Shown here one piece after another: positions 25,390 to 27,283 of a stretch of 57,684 bases of DNA. Position 1 is the first letter of the stretch; each line of letters begins with the position of its first letter. The position numbers and the translations under genes are program-made. The notes beneath the pieces were generated by a model. That model was given only the letters and a program-made list of their open reading frames with translations. It searched no databases and was not told the DNA's origin. This DNA is from Candidatus Doudnabacteria bacterium (GTDB taxonomy: Bacteria; Patescibacteriota; Doudnabacteria; UBA920). The stretch spans positions 1 to 57,684 of the forward strand of contig JBBRMG010000003.1 of the NCBI GenBank assembly GCA_038230955.1, written 5' to 3'.

Positions 25390-25905
25390 TTATATTGAAC
25401 ACGTGATCCAAACTTTTTGTGCCAGTTCCTTAAGAGGAACTAAGGCATCGCCAATGATTGGTTTCTGTCCCCATGGCTGAATTTCCACAACATACTTATT
25501 TTGATAGAACAAGCACATGAAAAACTCATCATCCAGTCCGACAAGAATCGCTTCATCAAAATCATTAACTCCAAGGAAATATGATGTGCAGATTGTGTCA
25601 TTATTTAACAACTTCACAAGTCTGTACTTTTCCATTTCGGGAAACAGTTTTTTTGCCTGGTTGATAACCCAGCGGTCATCTGTCTTGCTAACGATGTTCG
25701 ATTTTTGCGACCATAGTCTCCTGACAACTTCATCCAGAAATTCCCGATCGGTCATTGTTTTATCGCCGGCAATTGGGTAATTCACTGGTTTATCACTAAC
25801 GACTGGGCGTTTTCTCACAGACAGAATTACAACCGCAACATAAACGACAAAAGCTACGACCCAAACTAATACATACGGGGCATAAGCACCTTCAAAAAAT
25901 CTCAT
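25390..25905 (-). CDS. Hypothetical protein with an N-terminal TM helix
   Basis: 171-aa ORF, TM segment YVLVWVVAFVVYVAVVIL, GAGGTG SD upstream, GCGGTGCT/AGCACCGC hairpin downstream at 25338-25368. Confidence 0.7.
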   Translation of the reverse strand: MRFFEGAYAPYVLVWVVAFVVYVAVVILSVRKRPVVSDKPVNYPIAGDKTMTDREFLDEVVRRLWSQKSNIVSKTDDRWVINQAKKLFPEMEKYRLVKLLNNDTICTSYFLGVNDFDEAILVGLDDEFFMCLFYQNKYVVEIQPWGQKPIIGDALVPLKELAQKVWITCSI

Positions 25906-26037
25906 GTCATTTCACCTCTTTTGATAGATTTATATTCTATAATACTAGTTTAGGGTGGGGGGTGTCAATCGACCCGAAGGACTTGATTTTTATGCCAAAG
26001 TTTGGTATATTTACGAAGTCAATTTTTTTGACCTCGT

Positions 26038-26458
26038 CGCGGGGTAGAGCAACTGGCAGCTCGCAAGGCTCAATCTCGAGTAAGTTCTTTTTATGAATAT
26101 CGTCAAAAGTATTCATAGCGTTCGGTAGCACATTGTCTTTGGTCGAATCTGACAAACGTCAGAGGAAGCCGAAGTCTGCTAACTACCGAGAAGCGTTTGA
26201 ACTTATCTCACAATGGGCTGCGCCAGGGGTAACCTTGGTGTGAATTCTATCAAATTCGGGGAAACCTCCAGCAGTGGTAATCCCGAGCCAAGCTCCAAAT
26301 TTGGAGAAGGTGTAGAGACTTAATGGTAGACACCCTAACGCATTTTGCAAGGGTGAAGAGAAAGTCCAGACCACAAATTCGTATATAACGAAGCAGTTAA
26401 AGCTGTAGTGGTATGCATAACCTTGAGGTTCCGGGTTCGAATCCCGGCCCCGCAACCA
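26038..26458 (+). tRNA. Initiator tRNA-fMet(CAT), interrupted by a group I intron
   Basis: Exon 1 26038-26070 (CGCGGGG...CAAGGCT, exactly 33 nt). Exon 2 26416-26458 (CATAACCTTG...CCCCGCAACCA). C1:A72 mismatch typical of initiator tRNA; the joined anticodon arm is CAAGG-CTCATAA-CCTTG. Confidence 0.93.
26071..26415 (+). mobile_element. Group I intron (IC3-like), 345 nt, no ORF
   Basis: Inserted after U33 and ends in G. Core elements: P AAATTCGGGGAAAC (26252), Q AATCCCGAGC (26279), R GTAGAGACTTAATGG (26312), S AAGAGAAAGTCC (26356). IGS TGGGCT (26214-26219) gives the U33-G wobble. Confidence 0.92.
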
Positions 26459-26518
26459 AGCTAGTGCTGATTTAATTTTAGTGATAACAAATAAGCACTG
26501 ACTCGGTTAATGTGACGA

Positions 26519-26595
26519 GCCGGCGTAGCTCAGTTGGTTAGAGCGGAGGACTCATAAGCCTCAGGTCGTTGGTTCAATTCCAACCGCCGGTACCA
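26519..26595 (+). tRNA. tRNA with CAT anticodon (elongator Met or Ile2)
   Basis: GCCGGCG/CGCCGGT acceptor, loop CTCATAA, GGTTCAATTCC, ACCA end. Identity cannot be resolved by eye. Confidence 0.9.
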
Positions 26596-26632
26596 AATGT
26601 TGGAATAAGAATATACTAGCTCTTTAAAAAAT

Positions 26633-27283
26633 ATGCCTATTCACAAAACAGTAAATTCTTCATTCTTTCTAACATGGAGCAAGCCGATGGCTTATGTTTT
26701 AGGTTATTTTGCTGCCGATGGGTGCATGTTGAAAAACAAAAGAGGAGCCCACTTTATAGAGTTTACTTCTATAGACATAGAGCTTTTGCTTTCAATACAA
26801 AATGCAATCGGGTCAAACCATAGTATTTCTGTTAGAAATCGATTTACTTTTAACCAAAATATTGCTTATCGCTTGCAAATAGGAAGCAAGCAAATATTTA
26901 ACGACTTAAGCAACTTAGGCTTCACGTCAGCAAAAAGCAATTCCTTACAATTCCCTTCAGTGCCGATGCCCTATTTTAGTCATTTTACTAGAGGTTATTT
27001 TGATGGCGATGGACATGTATCAATTATCAAACGCTTGAATCGACCATCGAGTGTAATACAGTCTGGTTTCACTTCCGGCAGTCAAAAGTTTCTTACTCAA
27101 TTGCACACGGACTTAAAAAAATATGCTAGAATCAAGGGTGGTTCGTTCTGTTACCGTAAAGGTTACAGATTGAATTTCTCTATAAAAGATTCACTCCTAT
27201 TGTATAAATACATCTATAAAGATAGTGACAATTTATTTCTTGCGAGAAAACGTTTAGCATTCGAAAGATACTACAACGTTTAA
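26633..27283 (+). CDS. Free-standing double-motif LAGLIDADG homing-endonuclease-like protein
   Basis: Motif 1 YVLGYFAADG, motif 2 FTRGYFDGDG; basic; ends 7 bp before tRNA-Asp. Confidence 0.88.
   Translation: MPIHKTVNSSFFLTWSKPMAYVLGYFAADGCMLKNKRGAHFIEFTSIDIELLLSIQNAIGSNHSISVRNRFTFNQNIAYRLQIGSKQIFNDLSNLGFTSAKSNSLQFPSVPMPYFSHFTRGYFDGDGHVSIIKRLNRPSSVIQSGFTSGSQKFLTQLHTDLKKYARIKGGSFCYRKGYRLNFSIKDSLLLYKYIYKDSDNLFLARKRLAFERYYNV

What the first reader, a model, noticed from the sequence alone, without database searches (positions are those of the whole stretch)
26038..26458. Group I intron in initiator tRNA-fMet with an ORF-less, highly structured 140-nt P1 extension
Seen: insertion after U33, a terminal G, and IC3-like P/Q/R/S elements. 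The guide sequence TGGGCT lies ~140 nt from the 5' splice site. The intervening loop folds as GAGTAAGTTC/GAACTTA-T-CTC, TATGAATA/TATTCATA, TCGGTAG/CTACCGA and TCTGAC/GTCAGA. Established: introns at this tRNA-fMet position are known from cyanobacteria, where the Synechocystis copy carries the I-Ssp6803I endonuclease gene in the P1 loop. Inference: the endonuclease gene was lost or replaced by a structured insert. If this is the only fMet gene, translation initiation depends on splicing. Standard annotation may miss the tRNA.
Basis: partly seen in the sequence, partly recalled or inferred. Interest (0 to 1): 0.68.

Follow-up and report, generated by a model that had tools for sequence, protein, structure and literature searches.

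The report
Initiator-tRNA intron with decayed homing gene
The only start-of-translation tRNA gene of this tiny-genome (Saccharibacteria) bacterium is split by a well-known type of self-splicing intron, and the "structured insert" in it is what remains of the intron's own DNA-cutting (homing endonuclease) gene after a roughly 300-base deletion, so it is an ordinary element caught in mid-decay.

Summary
The gene at 26038-26458 is an initiator tRNA, split after U33 by a 345-nt group I intron (26071-26415; Rfam 68 bits). The guide sequence lies 144 nt from the 5' splice site, behind a very stable fold (z = -5.2).

The "ORF-less P1 extension" is not a new insert. Twelve relatives in the family carry the same intron at 640-781 nt. 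All hold an I-Ssp6803I-type gene in the P1 loop, normally a 147-150-aa ORF (PDB 2OST, E = 2e-55), though a few copies are damaged or cut.

The window keeps that gene's leader, its ATG and its last 48 codons. The 48 codons are out of frame with the ATG. About 299 nt, including the catalytic PYD...QVK motif, are gone.

- a P1 extension helix that encloses the ORF;
- a long-range helix that pairs the start codon with codons 106-108. Two synonymous third positions covary there: 28 of 38 Watson-Crick against 7-9 expected.

The deletion removed almost exactly the loop this second helix closes. The inner helices are conserved only within the lineage.

No second fMet gene and no intact endonuclease exist in the 98%-complete assembly. 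This is a known element in HEG decay, of modest interest.

The parts
25983..26011 (+). Promoter-like site (TTGATT, 17-nt spacer, TG, TATATT) 27 nt upstream of the tRNA gene
   Evidence: Consensus scan, 9 of 12 matches. Weak evidence; a consensus match only.
26038..26070 (+). 5' exon of tRNA-fMet (positions 1-33), ending in U33
   Evidence: It has the C1-A72 mismatch and the A11:U24 pair. The spliced sequence folds as a cloverleaf.
26071..26415 (+). Group I intron, 345 nt
   Evidence: ARAGORN i(34,345). Rfam RF00028 at 68.1 bits. Aligns with 78 other tRNA-fMet introns, all inserted at the same site.
26067..26072 (+). P1 5' strand: exon GGCU plus intron CA; the 5' splice site follows U33 (26070)
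   Evidence: Pairs with 26214-26219 in the MFE fold, with a U-G wobble at the splice site.
26214..26219 (+). Internal guide sequence UGGGCU (P1 3' strand). In relatives it is also the Trp-Ala codons of the endonuclease gene.
26078..26087 (+). P1a (P1 extension helix), 5' strand GAGUAAGUUC, in the leader of the former endonuclease gene
   Evidence: Pairs with 26199-26209. Compensatory changes occur in relatives, for example CUGUUAUUAAC/GUUAAUAACAG in L026. Each leader pairs with its own 3' strand at -9.5 kcal/mol against -7.2 for cross-pairs; permutation P < 1e-4.
26199..26209 (+). P1a 3' strand GAACUUAUCUC (former codons Glu-Leu-Ile-Ser)
26092..26099 (+). Start-codon helix (H2), 5' arm UAUGAAUA; holds the relic ATG at 26093-26095
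   Evidence: In 46 ORF-bearing introns the 8-bp core is 91% paired, against 28-48% when the partner is slid. One pair of synonymous sites covaries (CG 16, UA 15).
26100..26109 (+). Loop left by the deletion. The junction lies at about 26099/26100. Relatives have about 299 nt more here (codon 3 to codon 102).
   Evidence: Alignment with 11 ORF-bearing family members. BLAST gaps of about 300 nt at query positions 62-69.
26110..26117 (+). H2 3' arm UAUUCAUA (former Val-Phe-Ile codons 106-108)
26097..26243 (+). Remnant of the I-Ssp6803I-type endonuclease gene: the last 48 codons plus TGA, in the +1 frame relative to the relic ATG
   Evidence: tblastn with the relative's protein gives 88% identity over residues 106-148, E = 9e-20. 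Pfam PF11645 positions 106-137, E = 0.003, below the family cut-off.
26118..26198 (+). Inner folded domain of the remnant: H3 26122-28/26183-89, H5 26137-43/26168-74 and H4 26148-53/26158-63
   Evidence: Present in the MFE folds. Paired 75-89% in 10 Saccharibacteria relatives but only 52-63% in other phyla. RNAalifold predicts it only within the lineage. z = -5.3 here against a mean of -2.5 in ORF-bearing relatives.
26220..26241 (+). P2 hairpin with a GUAA (GNRA) loop; overlaps the last codons of the former gene
   Evidence: 94-99% paired in all groups, with many compensatory changes.
26245..26406 (+). Catalytic core P3-P9: P3 about 26245-51/26325-30, P4 26255-61/26281-87, P5, P6, P7 26315-20/26363-67, P8 26331-55, and P9 hairpins 26378-92 and 26393-406
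   Evidence: Rfam alignment, motif positions, and conserved blocks shared with cyanobacterial fMet introns.
26415..26415 (+). Terminal guanosine (omega-G) at the 3' splice site
   Evidence: All 79 related introns end in G before CAUAA.
26416..26458 (+). 3' exon of tRNA-fMet (anticodon CAU to the encoded CCA)

Best explanation
This is the single initiator tRNA gene of a Saccharibacteria genome. It is interrupted between U33 and C34 by a member of the known tRNA-fMet group I intron family, whose type example is the Synechocystis PCC 6803 intron encoding I-Ssp6803I.

In the ancestral form, still present in relatives, a gene of about 149 codons for a PD-(D/E)XK homing endonuclease fills the P1 loop. 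It starts about 22 nt after the 5' splice site and runs through the guide sequence into P2.

In this genome one deletion of about 299 nt removed codons 3-102, including the catalytic PYD...QVK motif. What remains is the leader, the ATG and the last 48 codons, now out of frame. The intron has therefore lost its mobility function.

The retained RNA keeps every helix that brings the guide sequence to the splice site:
- P1;
- the P1 extension helix (P1a) that encloses the former ORF;
- a long-range helix that pairs the start codon with codons 106-108.

The deletion took out almost exactly the loop closed by that last helix.

Inferred, not shown: the precursor self-splices by the usual two steps. 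Guanosine attacks after U33, then omega-G 26415 is released. The product is GGCU|CAUAA, and the cell depends on this for translation initiation.

The inner hairpins of the remnant are most likely leftover coding sequence with a lineage-specific tendency to fold, not a required domain.
For: Intron identity:
- Rfam RF00028, 68.1 bits.
- Intron boundaries from ARAGORN.
- A U-G wobble in P1 and a terminal G.

Same family as the cyanobacterial element:
- All 79 loci from at least nine phyla are split at U33|C34 and end in G.
- The core blocks align with those of Nostocales, Chroococcidiopsis and Leptolyngbya introns.

Endonuclease in relatives:
- A 147-150-aa ORF in the 640-781-nt forms.
- phmmer to PDB 2OST, E = 1.9e-55.
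- Pfam PF11645, E = 5e-47.

Remnant here:
- The alignment shows one gap, between ATGAATA and TCGTCAAAAGTATTC.
- tblastn gives 88% identity over residues 106-148. There is no other hit in the genome.
- Differences from relatives are mostly at third codon positions, for example 4/3/12 against L011. Most divergence therefore predates the loss of coding, and the deletion is recent.

Conserved helices:
- H2 is 91% paired, against 28-48% when slid.
- The synonymous pair is Watson-Crick in 28 of 38, against 7-9 expected from each ORF's own codon use (P < 5e-6).
- Ser at codon 2 is AGY in 11 of 11, against 38% elsewhere.
- P1a passes the own-versus-cross duplex test.
- P2 is 94-99% paired.

Sole fMet gene; the assembly is 97.9% complete.

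The junction is real: an independent contig of the source run covers 25800-26700 with no differences.
Against: - Splicing itself was not observed. No RNA run of this organism exists.
- The genome is a 53-contig MAG, so a second fMet gene in the missing 2% cannot be excluded.
- The L9 loop is UAAA rather than the GAAA of most relatives. Three relatives share this, and it might weaken a tertiary contact.
- The remnant's inner domain is more stable than in any ORF-bearing relative (z = -5.3 against a mean of -2.5). That could mean selection on the RNA rather than passive decay.
- Evidence for H2 rests mainly on one covarying pair plus codon choice. The other pairs are fixed by conserved amino acids.
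Confidence: 0.88

Rival explanations
1. The remnant is not mere debris. After the deletion, the 140-nt three-way P1 domain (P1a, H2 and the inner hairpins) was kept, and even stabilised, because the ribozyme in this lineage needs it to position the guide sequence or to fold correctly.
For: - It is very stable (z = -5.2 and -5.3), more so than the same region in every ORF-bearing relative.
- The deletion end points lie at the base of H2, so all helices survive.
- Some window-specific substitutions add pairs: CGC to AGG extends H4, and GGN to GCG adds a closing GC.
Against: - The inner helices are not conserved outside the family (52-63% paired, no alifold prediction).
- Seven relatives in the order work with a 217-261-nt intron that lacks them.
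- The allele is unique among 146 species of the order, and two metagenome scans found no other copy.
- The substitution pattern is that of a recently coding sequence.
Confidence: 0.15
2. The intron no longer splices and the gene is a dead initiator tRNA. The working copy lies in unassembled DNA.
For: - The assembly has 53 contigs and is about 98% complete.
- The L9 loop departs from GNRA.
Against: - All conserved core blocks, the P1 wobble and omega-G are intact.
- Both exons are identical or nearly identical to the uninterrupted genes of relatives.
- The synteny fMet-Met-Asp is that of the single-copy locus in 17 relatives.
- Three other tRNAs, including the only Phe and Tyr genes, are also intron-split in this genome, so splicing must work here.
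Confidence: 0.05
3. The remnant still encodes a small protein (36-48 aa, for example from the TTG at 26133) derived from the endonuclease's C-terminal tail.
For: - The frame is open for 48 codons and 88% identical to relatives.
- A TTG-started 36-aa ORF is listed.
Against: - The ATG is in another frame and is base-paired.
- No ribosome-binding site is evident.
- The fragment lacks the whole nuclease fold (Pfam positions 1-105).
- The open frame is explained by the deletion being recent.
Confidence: 0.03
4. The 345-nt form is an assembly artefact or a minority variant of a population whose main allele has the full endonuclease gene.
For: Depth is low, about 6.5x.
Against: - A second assembler's contig of the same run gives the identical sequence, with no alternative joint.
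- A 299-nt collapse without repeats has no obvious cause.
Confidence: 0.03

Closest known systems
Group I intron of the Synechocystis sp. PCC 6803 tRNA-fMet gene encoding I-Ssp6803I (655 nt, 150-aa ORF; listed in PMC1995217; structure PDB 2OST)
   Same: - Same insertion site (U33/C34).
- Homologous ribozyme core.
- Same endonuclease family, at the same place in the P1 loop and running into the guide sequence and P2.
   Different: - Here two thirds of the endonuclease gene, including the catalytic motif, are deleted and the rest is out of frame.
- The host is a Saccharibacteria (CPR) bacterium, not a cyanobacterium.
ORF-less tRNA-fMet introns of other cyanobacteria and of Saccharibacteria relatives (217-305 nt)
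   Same: - Same site and same core.
- No working endonuclease.
- P1 is closed by a short extension hairpin.
   Different: Those have 0-45 nt between the splice site and the guide sequence. This one still has 143 nt, with recognisable coding sequence. It is an intermediate between the full and empty forms.
The homing cycle of invasion, endonuclease degeneration, and intron loss (Goddard and Burt 1999, cited in PMC1995217); degenerated intron endonucleases of T4-like phages (PMC3984707)
   Same: - Sporadic distribution: 22 of 146 species in the order.
- Full and empty forms are interleaved on the tree.
- Every decay stage is seen: a frameshift (G037), a frameshift plus a 63-nt deletion (G098), the 299-nt deletion here, and empty forms.
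   Different: Nothing in principle. This is a further instance, in an essential single-copy tRNA gene.
Translational control of I-TevI in the phage T4 td intron by RNA structure around its ribosome-binding site and start codon (recalled from the T4 literature; reviewed in PMC2988022 and PMC3014915, which I did not read in detail)
   Same: The start codon of an intron-borne endonuclease gene is base-paired in the folded RNA.
   Different: Here the partner lies about 300 nt downstream, inside the same ORF. The helix doubles as the closure of the P1 loop. No experiment exists for this family.

Membership tests
Group I intron (Rfam RF00028) | Covariance-model score above the curated threshold over the P3-P9 core | tested here: met
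   68.1 bits against a gathering score of 50; E = 3e-15; the whole model is matched.
Group I intron (Rfam RF00028) | 5' splice site after a U that forms a U-G wobble with the internal guide sequence in P1; the intron ends in G | tested here: met
   GGCU|CA pairs with UGGGCU, U33 with G. G at 26415 precedes CAUAA.
Group I intron (Rfam RF00028) | Guanosine-dependent self-splicing | not testable with these tools
   No RNA data exist for this organism. An in vitro assay is needed.
tRNA-fMet U33/C34 intron family (Synechocystis type) | Insertion between U33 and C34 of an initiator tRNA | tested here: met
   The same site in all 79 related loci. The exons rebuild a tRNA with C1-A72 and A11:U24.
tRNA-fMet U33/C34 intron family (Synechocystis type) | Ribozyme core homologous to the cyanobacterial fMet introns | tested here: met
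   Long identical blocks in the alignment with Cylindrospermum, Scytonema, Calothrix and Chroococcidiopsis introns. All group in one tree.
IC3 subgroup of group I introns | Subgroup-specific architecture: P2 and P9 with GNRA loops, no P2.1, no P5abc | tested here: inconclusive
   The L2 loop is GUAA and no extra P5 or P2.1 domain is seen. L9 is UAAA here, against GAAA in most relatives. No subgroup classifier was run. That this intron family belongs to IC3 is recalled, not tested.
I-Ssp6803I / PDDEXK_5 homing endonuclease (PF11645) | Complete nuclease fold with the PD...(D/E/Q)xK catalytic motif | tested here: not met
   Only profile positions 106-137 remain (E = 0.003, 17.9 bits, below the 26.1 cut-off). 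PYD36 and Q49-V-K51 of relatives lie in the deleted segment. It is a gene remnant, not a member.
Bacterial initiator tRNA | C1-A72 mismatch and an A11:U24 pair | tested here: met
   Read from the exon sequence.
Bacterial initiator tRNA | Three consecutive G-C pairs (29:41, 30:40, 31:39) in the anticodon stem | tested here: inconclusive
   Only 30:40 and 31:39 are G-C; 29:41 is A-U. Intron-less relatives show the same, so it is a lineage trait.

The most novel reading that the evidence does not exclude
In the whole I-Ssp6803I / tRNA-fMet intron family the endonuclease gene may be dual-coded with the ribozyme. Three features would support this:
- Its leader and last codons form the P1 extension.
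- Its Trp-Ala codons are the guide sequence.
- Its start codon is locked in a helix with codons 106-108, about 300 nt away.

Folding of a splicing-competent P1 and translation of the endonuclease would then exclude each other. This would be a built-in switch, conserved across at least nine phyla.

The window would be a natural 'loop-out' deletion that removed only the unpaired coding loop. That would explain why an essential tRNA gene tolerated it.
Probability: 0.45. Interest if true: 0.5.

Novelty: new member of a known kind. Interest (0 to 1): 0.3.

Why it matters
For annotation:
- The only initiator tRNA of this genome is invisible to default tRNA finders, as are its only tRNA-Phe and tRNA-Tyr genes. 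Such genomes can therefore look as if they lack essential tRNAs.

For biology:
- The locus adds a clear intermediate to a natural decay series. Within one bacterial order the series runs from an intact endonuclease, through a frameshift, a small deletion and a large deletion, to an empty intron.
- The comparison uncovered RNA-level constraint inside the endonuclease ORF: the start-codon helix and P1a. If confirmed, this would explain how a mobile intron keeps its passenger gene from disturbing the splicing of an essential tRNA.

None of this changes the classification: it is a known element.

Tried and rejected
- An independent structured RNA or a small repeat element inserted into P1. Rejected: the region has no other copy in the genome and is 88% identical at protein level to the 3' end of relatives' endonuclease gene.
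- An intact or free-standing I-Ssp6803I homologue elsewhere in the genome. None found (tblastn).
- Inner helices H3, H4 and H5 as conserved RNA structure. Not supported outside the family, so left open as lineage-specific.
- Other genomes with the same deletion. None among 146 species of the order, and none in two metagenome-contig scans, one for the exact junction and one for a degenerate 'short loop' pattern.
- RNA evidence for splicing. Only two wastewater RNA runs hold about 4% of the words, probably conserved exons of other organisms.
- Whether H2 is specific to the intron context. Free-standing homologues keep 86% pairing and 11 of 20 Watson-Crick at the covarying pair. This is weaker than in introns (28 of 38) but not decisive.
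- Papers by Bonocora and Shub 2001, Paquin 1997 and Zhao 2007 are not held. I therefore could not check whether the start-codon helix was described before.

Full report
**1. What is at the coordinates**

The sequence at 26038-26458 reads CGCGGGGUAGAGCAACUGGCAGCUCGCAAGGCU | 345 nt | CAUAACCUUGAGGUUCCGGGUUCGAAUCCCGGCCCCGCAACCA.

- Joined, the two exons fold into a cloverleaf with a CAU anticodon. They carry the bacterial initiator marks: a C1-A72 mismatch and an A11:U24 pair.
- Only two of the usual three G-C pairs of the anticodon stem are present. Intron-less relatives show the same.
- ARAGORN finds the gene only when introns are allowed, as tRNA-Met i(34,345).
- Default ARAGORN and the Rfam tRNA model miss it.
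- Rfam's group I intron model matches 26199-26383 at 68.1 bits, above the threshold of 50.
- The intron starts after U33 (26070) and ends in G (26415).
- In the minimum-energy fold, exon GGCU plus intron CA pair with UGGGCU at 26214-26219. U33 sits opposite G there.
- The 141-nt stretch between the splice site and the guide sequence is far more stable than shuffled versions (-47.2 against -28.2 +/- 3.6 kcal/mol, z = -5.2).

**2. Genome context**

- The window is contig 3 of a 1.04-Mb, 43% G+C assembly that is 97.9% complete.
- Record titles of close relatives name it Saccharibacteria.
- The assembly has eight group I intron matches. Four are in tRNA genes: fMet here, Thr-UGU, the only Phe gene and the only Tyr gene. 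Four are in or next to the 23S rRNA gene.
- The only other CAU tRNA (26519-26595) has a paired 1:72 end. Because the genome also has tRNA-Ile(UAU), it is the elongator Met.
- BLAST of the exons finds no second fMet gene.

**3. What the 'P1 extension' is**

I searched the 95 species of the family with the whole gene.

- Most have an uninterrupted fMet gene.
- Nineteen carry the intron, in three size classes: 217-261 nt in six genomes, 345 nt in this one only, and 640-781 nt in twelve.
- The long forms differ from the window by about 300 extra nucleotides.
- The long forms hold an ORF, normally of 147-150 codons, that begins about 22 nt after the 5' splice site. It runs through the guide sequence (its Trp-Ala codons) into P2. 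One of the twelve is frameshifted (section 6), one is cut by a contig end, and one has a masked stretch.
- The protein matches PDB 2OST, the homing endonuclease I-Ssp6803I, at E = 1.9e-55. It matches Pfam PF11645 at E = 5e-47.

The window retains three pieces of this gene:
- the leader;
- the ATG (26093-26095);
- after a junction at about 26099/26100, the last 48 codons and the stop (26097-26243), shifted by +1 relative to the ATG.

These 48 codons are 88% identical to a relative's residues 106-148 (E = 9e-20). They are the only trace of the gene in the genome.

Relative to L011, the deletion removed 299 nt, from codon 3 to codon 102. That segment includes the PYD36 ... Q49-V-K51 motif.

Differences between the remnant and its relatives fall mainly on third codon positions and are no more numerous than between intact genes. 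Most of the divergence therefore accumulated while the sequence still coded, and the deletion is recent. A contig built by another assembler from the source run gives the same junction.

**4. Which helices are real RNA structure**

I used 46 distinct endonuclease-bearing introns from Saccharibacteria and at least eight other phyla. I threaded them on the gapless protein alignment.

(a) P1a (26078-87/26199-209).
- It encloses the whole ORF in relatives.
- Compensatory changes are plain within the family.
- Each leader pairs better with its own 3' strand than with those of other introns (-9.5 against -7.2 kcal/mol; permutation P < 1e-4).

(b) The hairpin TATGAATA/TATTCATA.
- In relatives it is a long-range helix, AUGRRNAC with GUNUUYAU, between the start codon and the Val-Phe-Ile codons 106-108, about 300 nt apart.
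- It is 91% paired, against 28-48% when the partner is slid.
- Most of its pairs are fixed by conserved residues, but two synonymous-level signals remain.
- First, the third base of codon 2 and the third base of the Val codon form C-G in 16 sequences and U-A in 15. That is 28 Watson-Crick of 38, against 7-9 expected from each ORF's own codon use (P < 5e-6).
- Second, Ser at codon 2 is always AGY (11 of 11, against 38% elsewhere).

(c) P2 is 94-99% paired everywhere.

(d) The inner helices (TCGGTAG/CTACCGA, TCTGAC/GTCAGA and CTTTGGT/GCCGAAG).
- They are 75-89% paired in the ten close relatives but only 52-63% in other phyla.
- RNAalifold predicts them only within the lineage.
- They are absent from the empty introns.
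- The window's inner domain is the most stable of all (z = -5.3, against a mean of -2.5 in ORF-bearing relatives and -1.6 in other phyla). I cannot tell whether that reflects selection or chance.

**5. Mechanism**

Shown:
- an intact ribozyme core, P1 geometry and omega-G;
- loss of the endonuclease;
- a single-copy essential host gene.

Inferred:
- The precursor, possibly transcribed from the promoter-like site at 25983-26011, folds with P1 closed by P1a and H2.
- It then splices by the standard guanosine-initiated pathway.
- The mature initiator tRNA depends on this.
- Without its endonuclease the intron can no longer home.

The deletion end points sit at the base of H2, so only the unpaired coding loop was lost. 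I read this as survivorship: deletions that break P1a or H2 would be lethal in an essential gene. That reading is an inference.

**6. Comparison and novelty**

- The element belongs to the family first described in Synechocystis (655 nt, 150-aa ORF; PMC1995217).
- The same intron plus endonuclease occurs in many phyla. Earlier notes of this scan say so too.
- Group I introns in CPR tRNA genes are mentioned in PMC8172020.
- Within the order, 22 of 146 species carry the intron.
- Full and empty forms interleave on the tree.
- Other decay stages exist: a one-base frameshift in G037, and a frameshift plus a 63-nt deletion of the PYD region in G098.

This is the classical homing cycle. The window is a new member of a known kind, notable only as a clean intermediate. 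The start-codon helix is the one result that may be new. I could not check the primary papers.

Noticed in passing
window 26633-27283 (+): A 216-aa ORF with a LAGLIDADG_3 domain (PF14528, E = 5e-11) fills the spacer between elongator tRNA-Met and tRNA-Asp. In 15 relatives with the same fMet-Met-Asp synteny this spacer is only 8-319 nt, so the gene is a recent free-standing insertion. Whether it can mobilise the now ORF-less intron is untested. It is the subject of another finding of this scan.
   Followed up: partly
genome contigs C35:541-883, C13:29785-30072, C5:3562-3850: Three more tRNA genes are split by group I introns: Thr-UGU (268 nt, 87 bits), Phe-GAA (213 nt, 71 bits) and Tyr-GUA (202 nt, 38 bits, below threshold). 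The Phe and Tyr genes are the only ones for those amino acids. Default ARAGORN misses all three.
   Followed up: partly
genome contig C11:1-6471 (L003, L008): The 23S rRNA gene is interrupted by at least three group I introns above threshold (78, 50 and 84 bits). A fourth, weaker match lies at C11:4814-4971, after the end of the 23S match and before the 5S gene.
   Followed up: no
genome contig C2:54445-54521: The genome has tRNA-Ile(UAU) and no third CAU tRNA. AUA is therefore apparently read without a lysidine-modified tRNA-Ile2.
   Followed up: no
L077, L081, L085, L096, L099, L100, L104, L106, L109, L114, L115, L116: In Nostocales, Chroococcidiopsis, Leptolyngbyaceae and some Bacteroidota the fMet intron is short (243-305 nt). 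The I-Ssp6803I homologue is then a separate gene, mostly 70-150 nt downstream of the tRNA (about 800 nt in L081). Earlier findings of this scan already noted this.
   Followed up: partly
L027 (G037) and L123 (G098): Two other decayed endonuclease genes in the same order. L027 has a one-base deletion causing a frameshift. L123 has a frameshift plus a 63-nt deletion that removes GVSKPIGDRLPYDLIADV.GK, including the catalytic Asp.
   Followed up: yes
L015, L026, L027 (intron P8 loop; also the P6 loop in L027): Three family members carry an extra 60-130 nt inside peripheral loops of the ribozyme, giving intron lengths of 736-781 nt. The origin of these inserts was not examined.
   Followed up: no
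window 26397-26402: The terminal P9 hairpin has a UAAA loop closed by U-G instead of the GAAA tetraloop of most relatives. L010, L019 and L023 share the variant.
   Followed up: no
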